A stretch of DNA of 64,000 nucleotides from Octopus vulgaris (Eukaryota): NCBI GenBank assembly GCA_951406725.2, contig OX597814.1:171678001-171742000 (forward strand), in the 5' to 3' direction. This document shows positions 1,763-27,774 of the stretch, piece after piece. Below the pieces are notes generated by a model. That model did not search any database. It was not told the DNA's origin and saw only the letters and a list, made by a program, of their open reading frames with translations. Position numbers and translations under genes: made by a program. Each line of letters opens with the position of its first letter. Positions within the stretch are counted from its first letter, which is position 1.

Positions 1763-2315
1763 CCACCACCACCACCACCAACACTACCTTCCCGCCTAAA
1801 CTACCACTTCTGCAACAACTGCCACCAAACTTAAAATCAACACCACCAGCACCAGCACTACCAGCACCAGCACCACCAGCACCAACAACAACAACAACAA
1901 CAACACAACCACACCACCACCACCAACGCCACAACGTCCACCACAAACACCCATTTTCTCGATTATCAGAAACATAAAAAAGAATGTTTATATTCGTATT
2001 ATGTGTATATATGTGTGTGGTGTACGTATGCGTGCGCGCGCGCACAGCAACTTTGACAGAGGCGTTAGCACCACGGACAAAATGTTTAGCTGCATTTGTT
2101 CCGATTCTTAACATTCAAAGCTCAAATTCCACCGAAGTCAATTTTTCCTTCCTTCATTTCGAGAATGATAAGAATAAAGGAGATGTACTCGCATAGCAAG
2201 TAATTTGATCTGAGATCGTGTGCTGAAACGAAAACAATTGCGGCGTGGAAGGTGTTTATAAGCCATTTAAGAAACACACAAAAGCCGTTCGATTCACTTC
2301 AACATTTAAGTTTAA

Positions 2316-2365
2316 TTTGTCAAAATATTTTCGTCGCTAAAATCCGCGACCTGTTCACTGACAAA
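2316..2365 (-). ncRNA. Minimal type-I hammerhead-like ribozyme, G3:C8 core variant
   Basis: Exact reverse complement of the motif at 2421-2470. Confidence 0.7.
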
Positions 2366-2420
2366 AATCCGTGCTGCATCACGGATGCAGCACGGATTTT
2401 GCAGAGATGCAGCACGGATT

Positions 2421-2470
2421 TTTGTCAGTGAACAGGTCGCGGATTTTAGCGACGAAAATATTTTGACAAA
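2421..2470 (+). ncRNA. Minimal type-I hammerhead-like ribozyme, G3:C8 core variant
   Basis: TTTGTCA [helix I] GTGAACA G GTCGC-ggatttta-GCGAC [helix II] GAAA ATAT T T TGACAAA [helix I']. Helix III is the palindrome AATATT. Confidence 0.7.
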
Positions 2471-2734
2471 TTAAAATTAAATGTTGAAGTGAATCGAACG
2501 GCTTTTGTGTGTTTCTTAAATGGCTTATAAACACCTTCCACGCTGCACTTGATAAGAATAAAGTTCTAGTCAAGTTATGGAGTCGATAAAATCAATTAAT
2601 CCCTGCTGAAATAAGAAGTATACTATGTACGTACTTGTGCGTATGTACTCATATCATACATGCTTATACACGGTTGAATAATAGCGACAAGTGCAGAATA
2701 TGTGTTGAGAGGGGTGAAACGGTATGGCACATTT

Positions 2735-8121: not shown

Positions 8122-8321
8122 GGAAGAGTTTAGGCCACTGGTGATCTAAATTAATAGATATTCAGTCTGAGTGCCCTACATGATAAGCTACTATGATCCA
8201 AGTTCACAACGGGGACTGGAGTTGTGGTAGCTACTGTCCAGTAAGGAGAGAACCGAGTGTCTGTAGCCTAACCCCCGATTCAGTTGGTATAATTCAAAAA
8301 AGAGGGAAACAAAATGAACCC

Positions 8322-8778
8322 AACAACAATGTCGAAAAGAAATGGGGCGAGTATGTCTCCCTGCAGTATTCCGGCTTTGATTGAGAAAGATGATGTTTCT
8401 CCGTCAGGGGTTAAGATGGTTGAAGAATTATCTGTGTAGAGGACCTTGATGGCAGAAATGATTTTGTCTGGTATCCCATAGAGCTTAAGGATTTCGAACA
8501 TCTTGTACCTATCTACAGAGTCGAACATTTTAGAAAAGTCTACAAATACCATTGCAAGATCGCGATTAAATGCTTTTGATTCTTCAATAAGTCCGCGTAG
8601 GCATAGTATCTGGCTCAGCATTGAGCGCCCATGTCTGAATCCATTTTGGTTCTTTCGGAGCAAAGGTTCAACAAAAAGGACAAGGCGATTTAGAATCAGT
8701 TTATTGTACAGTTTTGCAGCAATTAACATTAGAGATATACCCCTGTAGTTGATGACGAGGGATAAATCGCCTTTTTCC
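8322..8778 (-). pseudogene. RTE-clade LINE reverse transcriptase fragment
   Basis: KGDLS..NYRGISL..IAAKLYNK, QNGFRHGRS, FVDFSKMFDSV, GILQGDILAPFLF motifs. Truncated before YADD. Confidence 0.88.
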
Positions 8779-9017
8779 ATCCTGCTTGGCGGGGTATGGC
8801 GGTTTATGCACATTTCTTTACTTATATTCCTAGGTTTATCCATATTTCCTTACGTATATCCCTAGATAAGTACATATTTCAGAAAGGGAGTTGATTAATG
8901 CATCCATCTGAGAGAAAGGATCTCTCAGATCTAATTTAAATGAATTTAAATGAACTGATAAGCTTGGACTGCCTTGATTTTGTTTTCCTCTTCTTTAAAT
9001 TTTATGTATGTATATGC

Positions 9018-13906: not shown

Positions 13907-14863
13907 TCAATATCTTGTTGCTCCTCCTTTGGCAGCAATGACAGCTGCTACGCGGGTCGGCATGCTGTCTATGAGTGCCTGCAGGTACTGTGCAGGGATG
14001 GCCCTCCATGCAGCAAGAAGTGCCCGAAACAGCTCGTGTCGGTTCCTGTATTGCTGCACATTCAAATCCCTACCCAACCGACTCCAGAGGTTCTCAATAG
14101 GGTTCAGGTCAGGTCATGGTCCTTGAAGAAACCGGTTGTGAGCTTGGCTGTGTGGGAAGGCGCGTTGTCCTGCTGGAGCACGTACTCCTCGCCACCAAAG
14201 AGGTATCCCGTACTATCTCAACGTACTTTGCTGCGTTGATGTTGCCTTCGACGGCATAGAGCCGCCCAACACCACTGTAGCTGAACGCCCCTCACACCAT
14301 CAGACCACCCCACCATGCTTCATGGTGGGAGCAATGCAGTCTTTGTTGAAGCGCTCACCCCTGTTGCGTCGCACATGGACAGACTTGTCACTGATGAGAT
14401 TGAATCGCGACTCGTCAGTGAACATCACTGTCCGCCACTGCTGCACGGTCCATGTCTTGTGGGCACGGGCCCAGAGCAGCCGACTCTTCTAGTTTTGGGC
14501 TGTAAGGAGCGGCTTACGGGCGGCCCTACAGGATTTTAGACCAGCTTCCAGTAATCTGGTCTTGACGGTGGTTGTAGACAACTGCTTCCCTGTCATCTTT
14601 TGCATCTCCTCCGCCAGTTGCCGGCTCGTTGCCCTTCGGTTGTACAGTGACTTTCGGATCAGCATCCGCTGGGTCGTCAGCCTCTTCCGTCCCCTACCCT
14701 TTTTGTCTGCTGCTGATCCGGTTTCCTCGTATTTCTTAAATAAGCACTGAATTGTGCGCCTGGCTACACCAAGTTTTCTGGCTATTGCAGCCTCCGACAG
14801 CTTCCCACGCCACGAGAGAGCCTCGTACCGTCTCTCCAAGGTCATGCGAGGTCTTGGGCCCAT
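13907..14863 (-). pseudogene. Tc1 transposase pseudogene
   Basis: HTH plus GRGRKRLT, KPLL, then after an in-frame stop WRTVMFTDESRF, QQDNAPSHTAK, PDLNPIENLW, AVIAAKGGATRY*. Has stops and a deletion between the second D and E. Confidence 0.92.
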
Positions 14864-18416: not shown

Positions 18417-20818
18417 GATTGATTGATTGAGTGATTGATTGATTCTAGTTTCAGCTTATGAGCTGTGGCCATGCTGGGGCACCGCCATTTGGTGTTGCTA
18501 CTTGGTTTCACTTCATGGAGGCTTTCTAGCAACTGCTATTTGGTGCATGAGAGAGTTCGATGCAGCTGCCCTCATCTGCCCCTCCTGCCGTGAAGTTGGT
18601 TCATCTGGGACACCTGACAGGAAGAGATCCAGCTTCATTTTAAAGACATCTGTATCCACCCCATGCAGGTCTCTCAGGTTCTTCGGGAGGATATTGAAGA
18701 GCTGTGGGCCTCGGAAGCCCAGGCTATCACAGAATCTTGTCCTACATCTTGATGGCAGGTTTGGAGTCCTAGGCACCACGCAGTGGCGCCCAGTTCTGGC
18801 ATTTGCGTAACTCTCGATGCCAAAGTTCAGGACACTTCCCTCCAGGATCTTCCAGATGTATATTATGGCATATCTTTCCCGCCTACGCTCCAGGGAATAT
18901 AATTTTAATCTCTTGAGTCTTTCCCAGTAGCTTACATTCTGCATAGAGGCTATCTTCTTTGTGTAGCTTCGTTGGATCGCCTCAAGTTCTGTGATCAACT
19001 TGACACTGGATGGTGACCATAGCTGAGAGCAATAGTCAAAGTGGCTTAGGACAAGTGTCTTCCAGAGGACCATCATGGTTTCTTGTTCTCTTGTTCTAAA
19101 GGTTCTAAGAATCCATCCAGCCAGCCGTCTATATTTCATTGTCAGTTTAGCAACATGTACATGAAAGGTCGCGTCATCACTCATGTGAATACCAAGGTCA
19201 CGCACTGATTGTGCCTCTGGGATTGCAATCCCTCCGGGTCCAGTGTATTCATTGGGTATTGCATTCAGTTTTGCATGCTGATAGTATAAAGCTTGAAACT
19301 TTCCAGCATTGAACTGCATGCTATTCTTTTCAGCCCACTTGTATATTTCGTCCAGCTCACATTGCAGGTGTTTAGTGTCCTCAGGGTTCTGTATTGCCTG
19401 TGAGACTTTTGTATCATCTGCATAACTTGTGATCGTGGCTCTCTGCGTGGCTGAGGGCATGTCTGAGAGGGCCATTATGAACAGTAGTGGTCCCAAAACA
19501 GTGCCCTGCGGAACACCGCTCACTATTTGTGTGTTAATGGAGGTGGCCCCATTGGCTACTACCACCTGACTTCTATCCTTCAGAAAGTCATGAAGCCATT
19601 CTCCCAGTTTTCCAACTATGTTGAGATCACGCAGTTTGTGACATATCATTCCATGATCGACTTTATCAAAGGCCTTTGCAAAGTCGAGATATATCACTTC
19701 CACATTTGAGTGGTTGAGCAGCCGTTTCAGCACCCAGTCATAGTGTTGTAGGAGCTGAGTTAAACAGCTTCTCCCTGGTCGGAAACCATGTTGGGTGTCG
19801 GGCAGCAAGTCATTCTCTTCAAGGAAGGTGATCAGCTTCCTTCTGACTATTCGTTTCATGACCTTGCTGATGTGTGAGGTCAGAGAGATAGGTCTATAGT
19901 TCTTGGCTTCCGCTCTGCTACCTCCTTTATGAATGGGGCATATTTTACCTTCCTTCAGTTTTCCTGGAAGTTTGCCAGCTGCAAGGAAGCTCTGAAAGAG
20001 GAACTGCAGTGGTCTTGCTAGGACTCTCTTACATGCTTTTAGGAGGATTGCCGGGAATCCATCGGGGCCAGTAGCTGAGTCTGTTTTCATTTCATCTATA
20101 GCCTTGGTTACATCGTCTTCCTTTATATCGATGTAATCTATCGTCGCCGCCTCTGATTTTATATCTGCAGTGGTAAAAAAGTCAGTTGGATTGGTGATTT
20201 GGAGATGCCCAAGGGGTGGAGTGAAAACACTCTTGAATTGCTCATTCAGTATTTCACTTACCCTCATTGGTTTTCCTGTAAGTGTGCCATCCTTTTCAAG
20301 GAGTGGCCCTATTCTACAGTGCACTGTAGCTGTTTCTTTGGCATACCTGTAGAAAGCTCTGGGGTTAGATTTTATGTTTTCTATAGCCCAGGCTTCTTTG
20401 TCTGCTCTTTCTTTTTCATGGGAGAGTTGCAGACATTTTTCGATTTCCAACAGTTTTATTTTTAGGCGGGACTTTTCACTGCTTTCAATCTGTTTGTTTA
20501 GGCGATTTGAAAATTTCGTACGCCGTCTCATTAAAATTTTCCTCTCTCTGGGGATTTTGTTCTTGTGTACAGTGGCCTTTCTCTCTGGGACACATTTGTA
20601 GCATATGGCTTGCATTACAGACATGAATTGTTGAAGTTTCACGTCGATGTCTGGCGAGGAGAGACATTCAGGCCAGTTTTGTTTGAGGATCTCTTTCTCA
20701 ATTTGTTTCCAGTTTGCCTTATGGTAGTTCAAGCTGGAAAGATTTTGAGGGTTTCTTGTAGGCTGCATGTCCGTGCTCTCTTTTGGCCCGTACATGGTCA
20801 GCTCTATCATGTTGTGAT
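18417..20818 (-). mobile_element. 5'-truncated CR1-group LINE
   Basis: RT ORF, short 3' UTR with hairpin, and (AATC)n tail. 5' break at the end of the APE domain (..HNMIEL). (TA)n flanks. Confidence 0.92.
18513..20810 (-). CDS. LINE ORF2 reverse transcriptase (endonuclease domain missing), 765 aa open
   Basis: [56 protein letters not shown] and SLERRRER motifs with no stops. Confidence 0.92.
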
Positions 20819-20947
20819 ATATATATATATATACGAATATACAATATACGAATATACAATTACATAATGCTTTTCTGTCTATTTGTCAGTCACTATCTCT
20901 GCCTAACTCTAAGTGTTTATCTATGCATATGTATGTATGTGTGTGAA

Positions 20948-25008: not shown

Positions 25009-25205
25009 TTATATAATATAATATAATATAATATAATATAATATAATATAATATAATATAATATATAATATAATATGATATAATATATAATATAATATAA
25101 TATAATATAATATAATATAATATAATATAATATAATATAATATAATATAATGTAATACAATATAATATAATATATCATATAATATAGTATAATATAATAT
25201 AATAT

Positions 25206-25503
25206 TGTGGAAGGTCTTGTAAAGTCTATTTAAGAAACACACAAAAACCGTTCGATTCACTTCAACATTTAAGTTTAATTTGTCAAAATATTTTCGTCGC
25301 TTTAATACCGCGACCTGTTCACTGACAACAGGTCGCGGTTGTAAAGCGTGAAAATATTTTGAAAAATTAAACTTAAATGTTGAAGTAAATCGTTCGGCTT
25401 TTGTGTGTTTCTTAAATGGCTTACAAATAACTTCCACGCTGCAATTGTTTTCGTTTCAGCACACGATCTCAGATCAAATCACTTGCTATGCAAGTACATC
25501 TCC
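25206..25503. mobile_element. PLE pLTR inverted pair, same family as 2178-2547
   Basis: Arms meet at ~25325-25328. The long arm ends cacgatctcagatcaaatcacttgctatgcaagtacatctcc, matching the reverse complement of 2178-2220. Confidence 0.7.
25280..25328 (-). ncRNA. Minimal hammerhead-like ribozyme, G3:C8 variant (third copy)
   Basis: Minus: TTGTCA GTGAACA G GTCGC-ggtattaaa-GCGAC GAAA ATAT T T TGACAA. Only loop II differs from 2421-2470. Confidence 0.7.
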
Positions 25504-25801
25504 GTAATAATATAATATTATTACAATTATAATTATATTTCAAATATACATAACAAAGTTTAAAGAGTTTCTAATATAGAAATCATTACTCCTCGTAGAA
25601 TGGGTAGATGTATTTAATAATAACAATGTTGACAATATAATGTTCACGATGGTTAGGAGGAGCACGGCAAAAGATAGCTATTGGTGTGTCAGTGCATTTA
25701 TACATAAACATATATCTGTATGTGTGTGCGTGTGTATGTGTGTATATATGTATATATATATATATGTTAGAGGTATTGGGGGTGATGTACAGATTTAATA
25801 C

Positions 25802-26020
25802 ATATGAAAGAAAAAAGGTGTTCAGAATGCTGGATGGTTGTAAAAATATATATTTATTTACATATCACATATTATTTCTTCATATTAGCGCTTTCAACTA
25901 CTCCTGATGAAACTACAGGAGTAGTTGAAAGCGCTAATATGAAGCAATAATATGTGATATGTAAATAAATATATATCTTTACAACCATCCAGCATTCTAA
26001 ACACCTTTTTTCTTTCATAG
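25802..26020. mobile_element. ~105-bp-arm palindrome (PLE pLTR pair) with a canonical hammerhead core at the centre
   Basis: CTGATGA (25904-10) AACTAC-agga-GTAGTT GAAA GCGC T A; helix III palindrome AGCGCT. The 5' strand of helix I is removed by the inversion. Confidence 0.72.
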
Positions 26021-26030
26021 GTATATATAT

Positions 26031-26288
26031 ATGGTCATGTTGCCAGCTTAGCCAATAAAAACACACGCACAATATATTTGATGTTAATTTGCTTCAGCCT
26101 TATATATTTTTTACATTAATCTTAATCTTATTTCGGCCAGAGTTCTTTCGTCACACTTCTGTGACTTCATCAGTGGTCCTTTGCTTTCTTCTTTCTTATT
26201 TGTGTGTCTCTCCTTACTAACGGTCATCCATTTTGTATTTTATATTCCTATTTAATGGAAATATTGGCTAAAGTGGCAACATGACCAT
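26031..26288 (-). mobile_element. Putative PLE fragment bounded by a 27-bp inverted repeat
   Basis: atggtcatgttgccagcttagccaata (26031-57) vs tattggctaaagtggcaacatgaccat (26262-88), enclosing a hammerhead motif. Confidence 0.55.
26137..26176 (-). ncRNA. Minimal type-I hammerhead ribozyme, canonical core
   Basis: Minus: CCA CTGATGA A GTCACA-gaag-TGTGAC GAAA GAAC T C TGG. Cleavage triplet CUC. Confidence 0.72.
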
Positions 26289-26364: not shown

Positions 26365-26585
26365 TTTAGGATGCCTTAAGGATTACCGATGAAATGTATA
26401 TTCATTCATTTATCTACAGTATCGAACGACAGAAGACTGTAGTCGGCACCCTTCACGTCATAACAAACCGTTTCGGATGACATATGAACCATTTTCATGT
26501 TCGATAAGGCGCAATGTTCCCGTGGGGCGCTAAATGTCGAGGCGTGAGCTCTCAGATAGGACAGAAATTTTGTGTGTTATATAGG

Positions 26586-26658
<73 letters not shown>

Positions 26659-26912
26659 CGCGCGTGTGTGTATATATATATATTTGTGTGCTCGTGTACA
26701 TTCATGTGAGGCGGAATACCTTTGCATACTGCATAAAGCCCTCAACTCTTGTTAAATGTTTATTAATGACTGGCCTGAAGAGTTGTACTAATATAATACA
26801 CGGATATTCATATCCATGTGTATATATGCTTCTGTATGTATATATATATATACATAAATATGTGCATATATATATATGTATACAATATATATTTATATAT
26901 ATGTATACATAT

Positions 26913-26944
<32 letters not shown>

Positions 26945-26999
26945 GAATATATATATACATATATATGAACATATTTATGCATGTATATATATGTATACG

Positions 27000-27040
<41 letters not shown>

Positions 27041-27258
27041 CATATATATATATGTATGTATATATTTATATATATATTATGCATATATATATATATACAT
27101 ATACATATGTATATATATATATATATATATATACGTATACATACATATATACATGCATAAATATGTTCATATATATGTATATGTATACATGTGTATATAT
27201 ATATATATGTATACATATATATATATATATATATATATATTGTATACATATATATATG

Positions 27259-27319
<61 letters not shown>

Positions 27320-27774
27320 ATACATATATATATGCACATATTTATGTATATATATATATACATACAGAAGTATATATACACATGGATATGAATATCTGTG
27401 TATTATGTTAGTACAACACTTCAGGCCAGTCATTAATAAACATTTAACTCTACATCAACAAGAGTTGAGGGCTTTTATGCAGTATGCGAAGGTATTCCGC
27501 CTCACATGAATGTACACGAACACCCACATATATATATACACACACACACAATTCCTATACAACACACAAAATCTCTGTCCTATCTGAGAGCTCACGCCTC
27601 GACATTTAGCGCCCCACGGGAACATTGCGCCTTATCGAACATGAAAATGGTTCATATGTCATCCGAAACGGTTTGTTATGACGTGAAGGGTGCCTACTCC
27701 AGTCTTCTGTCGTTCGATACTGTAGATAAATGAATGCATATACATTTCATCGGTAATCCTGAAGACATCCTAAA
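26365..27774. repeat. ~1.4-kb fold-back (inverted duplication)
   Basis: 26365-~27000 is the diverged reverse complement of ~27130-27774, including mirrored microsatellite blocks. Confidence 0.92.

What the first reader, a model, noticed from the sequence alone, without database searches (positions are those of the whole stretch)
25206..25503. Separate copy of the G3:C8 motif: loop changes, core and stems do not
A second insertion 23 kb away has several substitutions in its flanks and a different loop II (ggtattaaa vs ggatttta) but identical GTGAACA core, helix II, GAAA and helix III. The variant core is therefore a family trait, not a private mutation. The second arm starts inside the core (aacaggtcgc) and is decayed.
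Basis: seen in the sequence. Interest (0 to 1): 0.7.

Follow-up and report, generated by a model that had tools for sequence, protein, structure and literature searches.

The report
Swapped-pair hammerhead in octopus retroelement
An abundant octopus jumping gene carries a small self-cutting-type RNA (a hammerhead) whose two paired core letters are swapped, a form known from laboratory mutants that we did not find described in nature; related elements use the other three pairings, but cutting has not been shown.

Summary
25207-25506 is a 5'-truncated, folded-back insertion of a Penelope-like element (PLE) between 13-bp target duplications. Its left arm holds a minimal type I hammerhead with a G3:C8 core pair, an extra G after A9 and a palindromic helix III. 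The frame 92-94 nt downstream matches Octopus proteins that continue into a PLE reverse transcriptase. G3:C8 is a family trait: it is in 3 of 3 complete arms here and in a different-loop consensus from runs of three organisms. Loop II is hypervariable, but core and stems are not measurably more conserved than the flanks within the family, and the second arm has three stem changes. The stronger evidence lies across families: in related elements the same motif shows C:G, U:A or A:U at 3:8 (10 of 11 hits paired, 11 of 11 with the extra G). The octopus pair is therefore a compensatory swap. Natural G3:C8 was not found in nine literature searches, but two key papers were unavailable. Cleavage is untested, and this copy is probably inert.

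The parts
25194..25206 (.). left target-site duplication (13 bp, in AT-rich microsatellite)
   Evidence: identical 13-mer at 25507-25519
25207..25328 (-). short arm: 5'-truncated copy of the element's terminal repeat (pLTR), without the tail; holds the complete hammerhead
   Evidence: 92% to the 2180-2549 copy, 86% to the right arm
25279..25328 (-). minimal type I hammerhead motif: G3:C8 pair (25322, 25317), extra G9a (25315), 5-bp helix II, 9-nt loop II (25301-25309), GAAA (25292-25295), palindromic helix III, predicted cut between 25286 and 25285; only 6 native bp of helix I 5' strand remain
   Evidence: same architecture in 10 related loci
25327..25328 (.). fold-back junction; two bases shared by both arms (microhomology)
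   Evidence: sequence
25327..25506 (+). [quoted passage not shown]
25416..25506 (+). first 30 codons of the PLE ORF (stop at codon 5 in this copy)
   Evidence: 84% identity, E=1.3e-10 to Octopus protein P0002; P0002 1-221 is 78-79% identical to P0004/P0019, which run into a PLE RT
25438..25506 (+). tail, present in the long arm only (about 55-70 nt)
   Evidence: two clusters of element ends with AT-rich flanks at reference positions 2179 and 2232-2237 in runs X1, X12, X13
25507..25519 (.). right target-site duplication
2180..2549 (.). the other insertion of the family: same fold-back design, arms 98% alike, complete G3:C8 motifs at 2316-2366 (-) and 2420-2470 (+), ORF start at 2266 (-), 14-bp target duplication at 2166 and 2550

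Best explanation
This is the pLTR hammerhead of an abundant Octopus Penelope-like retroelement family, in which the tertiary core pair C3:G8 has become G3:C8 in the master lineage. Shown: structure of the insertion, motif anatomy, link to a PLE ORF, family-wide G3:C8, and covariation of the 3:8 pair across related families. Inferred: in full-length pLTR-ORF-pLTR transcripts two motifs pair through the palindromic helix III, or are helped by the element's protein, and cut after U17, probably slowly; the 2'-OH at position 8 is held in place by the swapped pair. Selection on master elements keeps the pair, while loop II is free. The copy at 25207-25506 is a dead product of target-primed reverse transcription with truncation and inversion; in a read-through RNA its two arms would pair with each other and hide the motif.
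For: Target duplications, inverted truncated arms, tail and AT-rich target match PLE insertions as described in PMC8557442. The downstream frame matches P0002, whose N-terminal 221 residues find 16 relatives; P0019 and P0021 run into an RT, and full-length relatives end in a cysteine linker and a GIY-YIG-like domain. In 53 related loci a descriptor with positions 3, 8 and 9a left free gives 11 hits in 10 loci (0.025 expected): 4 C:G, 5 U:A, 1 A:U and 1 unpaired C:A, all with G9a. Position 3 lies 93 nt before the start codon in L004 and 92 nt in the window. Helix I and helix III pairs also covary: 28 cells changed on both sides against 1-5 in slid controls. The engineered C3G/G8C double mutant partly restores cleavage in a PLE hammerhead (PMC11167929).
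Against: No cleavage data. No raw RNA reads; no listed holder is on record as RNA. No constraint on core and stems against flank within the family. The variant table has no rows beyond 2347, so positions 3 and 8 were probably not scored there; family-wide G3:C8 rests on 3 arms and on loose-end consensuses (91, 54 and 58 contigs, agreement 0.66-0.74, median length 12-15 letters, so fewer than half reach the core). Helix III is all A-U. Metazoan minimal hammerheads cut poorly even as dimers (PMC4209133). In the one reconstituted PLE, cleavage was not needed for insertion and no reads ended at the cut site. The link to the RT is a chain of protein matches, not one DNA locus. 43 of 53 related loci gave no strict hit, many because they lack the element's ends.
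Confidence: 0.65

Rival explanations
1. The motif descends from the clade's hammerhead but no longer cuts in octopus. The fold is kept as a binding or promoter element for the RT protein, or simply because the family is too young to have lost it.
For: No within-family constraint over flank. Catalytic mutants did not impair insertion in a reconstituted PLE (PMC11167929). The closest relatives in the tree carry further odd cores, read by eye: L016 U15.1:A16.1, L028 C at position 9.
Against: Reaching G3:C8 from C3:G8 takes two transversions that restore exactly the pair needed for catalysis; every other core position is canonical. Ten of 11 related motifs keep a Watson-Crick 3:8 pair. CpG changes inside the motif are lower (3-6% in X1) than at three flank CpGs (5-15%), although clipping at the loop may bias this.
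Confidence: 0.27
2. Loop II varies because hairpin loops and short homopolymer runs are mutation hot spots during reverse transcription or in DNA, not because it alone is free of selection. This can hold together with either reading above.
For: Loop II varies more than the flank, not only more than the stems (7 of 16 against 16 of 208; non-CpG sites 4 of 7 against 7 of 92). The two arms of this single insertion differ at two loop positions.
Against: The flank is itself 5' leader and coding sequence, so it may be constrained. Several loop forms recur in many contigs and in several organisms, which points to subfamily changes.
Confidence: 0.3
3. Chance look-alike inside a palindromic repeat (MITE-like or microRNA-like hairpin), or an assembly fold-back artefact.
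For: Rfam finds no hammerhead, only sub-threshold microRNA-hairpin matches. The whole element folds as one long hairpin (-147.9 kcal/mol).
Against: Arms differ by 14% and are flanked by target duplications, so this is no artefact. The motif sits at the homologous place in related elements, with covarying pairs. Rfam also misses the two canonical-core motifs 600-850 bp away.
Confidence: 0.03

Closest known systems
Minimal type I hammerheads (min-HHRs) in the pLTRs of metazoan Penelope-like elements (PMC4209133)
   Same: Type I order, extra nucleotide between A9 and G10.1, G10.1:C11.1, palindromic helix III, U-rich 5' and AU-rich 3' flanks, place in the pLTR, copies on opposite strands a short distance apart; U17 is common in that paper's table.
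   Different: G3:C8. All 56 representatives in its Fig. S3 are C3:G8 (53) or U3:A8 (3). The extra nucleotide is G here; the consensus there is H, with G in 1 of 56.
Natural U3:A8 core variants (PMC3088659; Schistosoma Cercyon elements in PMC4209133)
   Same: Compensatory change of the 3:8 tertiary pair.
   Different: U:A keeps pyrimidine at 3 and purine at 8 (two transitions); G:C inverts the pair (two transversions) and puts a pyrimidine at position 8.
Engineered C3G/G8C rescue mutants, including the Anolis Poseidon element PAc (PMC11167929; reviewed in PMC8495972)
   Same: Same pair; PAc also has the hammerhead at the ORF start and a tail that ends inside the ORF.
   Different: Those are laboratory mutants with partial activity; this one is natural and family-wide. 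In PAc the ORF starts inside helix II, here 92 nt after position 3.
C-terminal-endonuclease PLE clades Neptune, Nematis, Hydra (PMC8557442)
   Same: Single ORF of about 1040 aa, RT then cysteine linker then GIY-YIG-like domain, pLTR hammerhead, (TA)-rich targets.
   Different: Relatives have DKS where that paper lists DKG, DKA or DKT, and a long insertion between RT motifs although it ties such insertions to Naiad/Chlamys and some Coprina. Four diagnostic words are absent from its supplement. The clade was not named; no tree with reference clades was built.

Membership tests
Hammerhead ribozyme (type I, minimal) | Three-way junction in type I order with helices I and II | tested here: met
   6-7 bp helix I and 5 bp helix II form the minimum-energy fold
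Hammerhead ribozyme (type I, minimal) | Core U4 G5 A6 N7, A9, G12 A13 A14, A15.1:U16.1, H17 | tested here: met
   all present in 3 of 3 complete arms
Hammerhead ribozyme (type I, minimal) | Literal C3 and G8 | tested here: not met
   G3 and C8; so it is filed as a variant, not a canonical member
Hammerhead ribozyme (type I, minimal) | Watson-Crick pair between 3 and 8 | tested here: met
   G:C here; pair covaries across related families
Hammerhead ribozyme (type I, minimal) | Covariation in helices | tested here: inconclusive
   met across families for helix I and III; no double change within the family; helix II was not countable on alignment A4
Hammerhead ribozyme (type I, minimal) | Score in an Rfam hammerhead model | tested here: not met
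   no hit at gathering level or at E up to 10; two canonical-core motifs nearby are missed too, so the test has little power
Hammerhead ribozyme (type I, minimal) | Site-specific self-cleavage after N17 | not testable with these tools
   needs an assay or raw RNA ends; only contigs were available
Penelope-like element, C-terminal EN+ | Truncated, inverted pLTR copies with a tail at one end | tested here: met
   both insertions
Penelope-like element, C-terminal EN+ | ORF with PLE-type RT | tested here: met
   by a chain of protein matches, window frame to P0002 to P0019/P0021; Pfam RVT_1 is weak (E=0.004-0.03); motif names are partly recalled
Penelope-like element, C-terminal EN+ | C-terminal GIY-YIG endonuclease | tested here: inconclusive
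   seen in relatives (P0056 E=0.003, 1 of 8 proteins scanned; motifs visible); no protein of this octopus family reaches the C-terminus
Penelope-like element, C-terminal EN+ | Hammerhead in both pLTRs of a full element | tested here: inconclusive
   met in relative L004; no full octopus copy was available
Penelope-like element, C-terminal EN+ | Membership of a named clade (Neptune, Nematis, Hydra, Poseidon) | not tested
   no reference proteins were in hand
Naiad | N-terminal GIY-YIG, no canonical hammerhead | tested here: not met
   ORF starts with a helical domain; relatives carry the nuclease-like part at the C-terminus
Non-LTR retrozyme | Head-to-tail tandem units each with a hammerhead | tested here: not met
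   both insertions are inverted pairs with ORF start and target duplication

The most novel reading that the evidence does not exclude
This PLE clade carries a distinct hammerhead subtype, with an invariant G after A9 and a four-base palindrome in helix III, in which the core is unusually free: all four Watson-Crick pairs at 3:8, and by eye also U15.1:A16.1 (L016, L053) and A at position 5 (L053). The extra G, dimer formation or the element's own protein offsets the cost, so that the octopus G3:C8 form is fully active in vivo. Searches built on CUGANGA would have missed such families.
Probability: 0.25. Interest if true: 0.72.

Novelty: new variant of a known kind. Interest (0 to 1): 0.5.

Why it matters
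The 3:8 pair positions the general acid of the hammerhead. Its inversion was known as a laboratory rescue with partial activity. A natural, family-wide G3:C8 form, in a clade that also uses C:G, U:A and A:U, is a ready-made series for testing how much cleavage a Penelope-like element needs, which is still an open question. It also means that descriptor searches fixed on CUGANGA or UUGANAA undercount these motifs, and that elements reported to lack hammerheads deserve a second look. The single insertion in the finding has no special importance.

Tried and rejected
Whole-genome copy survey: no genome is held. DNA pattern from the family in metagenome contigs: 0 matches. Relatives in viral contigs: none; in genome contigs one, a short contig inside a bacterial bin. 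Run search: no RNA holder listed; X9 is only guessed to be RNA. Rfam: no hammerhead. A 75-nt intron downstream of the motif was considered and rejected: relatives' N-termini align with the unspliced frame and no matching joint was among the 15 joints shown of 36. A SECIS reading was dropped: helix II is too short for one (own knowledge) and the host is not a Naiad. Word-index search with P0002 1-215 among longer proteins: 0 of 933 candidates. Atlas look-alikes: nothing above the bar. PDB sequence search with P0021: 0. One search used a mis-registered structure and was replaced. A rule that N17 avoids pairing with N3 was considered and dropped: L001 and L004 have U3 with A17. No further part of the parent ORF lies in the window. 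Earlier findings by place and by sequence: none.

Full report
Verdict. The argument from two copies is weak, but evidence from related elements supports the conclusion. It is a new-looking natural variant of a known kind, with no proof of cutting.

What the sequence shows. The insertion runs from 25207 to 25506 between two identical 13-mers. It is a fold-back: a short arm read on the minus strand and a long arm on the plus strand, 86% alike, joined at two shared bases. The short arm holds the whole motif; the long arm starts at core position 6 and carries about 55-70 extra bases at its far end. The copy at 2180-2549 has the same design, arms 98% alike and a 14-bp duplication. A descriptor that accepts any Watson-Crick 3:8 pair finds exactly the three complete arms, against 0.03 expected per window. 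The isolated motif folds as drawn; the whole insertion folds as one long hairpin that buries it.

What the element is. The frame starting at 25416 matches the N-terminus of an Octopus sinensis gene model, P0002 (84%, E=1.3e-10; the only candidate). P0002 is a chimera whose last third is a methyltransferase. Its first 221 residues find 16 representatives, among them O. bimaculoides P0003 (86-90%) and O. vulgaris P0004/P0019 (78-79%), which continue into a reverse transcriptase. A relative, P0021, finds 93 proteins among the 8000 candidates scored; full-length ones end in a cysteine linker and a GIY-YIG-like domain. Truncated inverted arms, a one-sided tail and AT-rich targets are how PMC8557442 describes PLE insertions, and a tail ending inside the ORF start matches PMC11167929. 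The host is therefore an octopus by inference from these hits, and the element a C-terminal-endonuclease PLE whose clade I could not name. The link from motif to RT is a chain of protein matches, not one DNA locus.

Is G3:C8 a family trait? I laid 4 of the 24 listed runs on 2178-2380 at 80% likeness: 18508, 7841, 4883 and 1380 contigs from three coded organisms. These are not copy numbers, but the family is clearly abundant. Contigs clipped at loop II give a consensus with a third loop followed by the same core in X1, X12 and X13 (91, 54 and 58 contigs). One limit matters: the variant table has no rows before 2226 or after 2347, and two differences known from the window near the start are missing, so places near the ends were probably not scored. 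Positions 3 and 8 lie there. Family-wide G3:C8 thus rests on 3 of 3 arms and on those loose ends, fewer than half of which are long enough to reach the core.

Do loops change while core and stems do not? Loop II is clearly the most variable part: 7 of 16 positions in the two arms, against 3 of 73 structured and 16 of 208 flank positions. At least five loop forms are seen across the window and the runs. But structured positions are not more conserved than flank: p=0.42 on the arms, and 5 of 24 against 15 of 103 sites in the scored part of the runs (p=0.53). The changes seen in the structured part are mild in kind: one A-to-G that leaves a wobble pair in helix I (7-12% of depth) and four CpG transitions (3-6% in X1). 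No double compensatory change appears within the family.

The stronger test. An alignment of 32 relatives fetched 52 metagenome loci and one more contig. After a first look I fixed a strict descriptor with G10.1:C11.1 and a four-base palindrome, leaving positions 3, 8 and 9a free. It gave 11 hits in 10 of 53 loci, against 0.025 expected from shuffles: 4 C:G, 5 U:A, 1 A:U and 1 C:A, all with G at 9a. The hits are not independent: L004 counts twice, L023 (the unpaired one) is a copy of the L018 motif with a CpG change, and L002 and L027 are sisters, which leaves about eight lineages. Nine hits lie on the sense strand (eight just after the ORF end, one before the start in L004); two are inverted copies upstream. 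In L004 position 3 is 93 bases before the start codon, in the window 92. On an alignment of two window arms and nine relatives (L023 and the second L004 copy left out), the 3:8 pair shows all four types, and helix I and III pairs covary: 28 cells changed on both sides against 1-5 in slid controls. The palindrome was required by the descriptor, so its covariation is partly built in. In the tree (L018 left out as too short), P0019 falls in a well-supported group with L016 (C:G) and L028 (U:A, read by eye), and pair states are scattered across a poorly resolved backbone. The swap is best read as compensatory.

How it most likely works. Shown: anatomy, position, family spread, covariation. From the literature: minimal PLE hammerheads do not cut as monomers and cut weakly as dimers (PMC4209133); C3G/G8C partly rescues activity, including in a PLE hammerhead that needed the element's protein, and cleavage was not required for insertion in vitro (PMC11167929). 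Inferred: the master element's two motifs pair through the palindrome and cut slowly after U17, and that was enough to keep a paired 3:8. I put this at about 0.65, against about 0.27 for a homologous but no longer cutting motif. This particular copy is truncated, has a stop at codon 5, and is almost certainly inert.

Against what is known. U3:A8 is in print as a natural variant (PMC3088659; PMC4209133). G3:C8 appeared only as an engineered change in the passages I saw, and in none of 56 representatives in Fig. S3 of PMC4209133. Nine searches listed no paper that reports a natural G3:C8 family or any octopus hammerhead. The library lacks PMC5785218, a large survey of PLE hammerhead variants, and PMC3334697; either may already list it. 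What I saw of each paper: PMC4209133, main text parts 1-2 of 4 and supplement file 2 parts 1-2 of 3 (file 1 not searchable); PMC3088659, passages and one section; PMC8557442, passages and two supplement searches; PMC11167929, PMC6765202, PMC3884650, PMC8495972, PMC11014351 and PMC13282606, passages only (the supplement of the last was listed, not read); bioRxiv 10.64898/2026.07.22.740005, part 1 of 5. Two earlier scan notes describe G3:C8 candidates in PLEs of other genomes; I did not check them and they are not counted as support.

Scores. Interest 0.5; new variant of a known kind. The bolder reading, a clade-wide subtype with a relaxed core that is fully active, has about 0.25 probability and would deserve about 0.7.

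Noticed in passing
window 25798-26022: A second, unrelated fold-back (93% palindrome) 300 bp away carries a canonical-core minimal hammerhead at 25904 (+) with a four-base palindrome; its helix I 5' strand is lost at the junction.
   Followed up: partly
window 26031-26288: A third element with 27-bp inverted ends holds a canonical-core hammerhead at 26173 (-). Three different hammerhead-bearing insertions lie within 1.1 kb of AT-rich sequence.
   Followed up: partly
window 26365-27774: Inverted arms of 261 nt, 94% complementary, around a microsatellite block; no hammerhead found by the scan.
   Followed up: no
window 2360-2420: The junction of the first insertion holds a short extra duplicated piece of the upstream sequence, as from two template jumps.
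   Followed up: no
L016 4973-5020; L053 just after 2295; L028 just after 2375: Related motifs read by eye with further core changes: U15.1:A16.1 (L016, L053), A at position 5 (L053), C at position 9 with U3:A8 (L028). Single copies, so decay is not excluded.
   Followed up: partly
proteins P0019, P0021, P0023, P0039, P0055, P0056: The parent clade joins a DKS motif and a long insertion between RT motifs with a C-terminal nuclease-like domain; this combination is not among the clade descriptions I read in PMC8557442 and may be an unnamed PLE clade.
   Followed up: partly
protein P0002: An Octopus sinensis gene model fuses the PLE ORF start to a methyltransferase domain; probably a prediction chimera, not checked.
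   Followed up: no
L053: A PLE contig sits inside a bacterial genome bin, most likely host DNA.
   Followed up: no
window 18513-20885 (-) and 8280-8849 (-), 14489-14863 (-): A 790-aa LINE-type RT frame, a shorter RT fragment and a Tc1-like transposase fragment, named from the translations by own knowledge.
   Followed up: no
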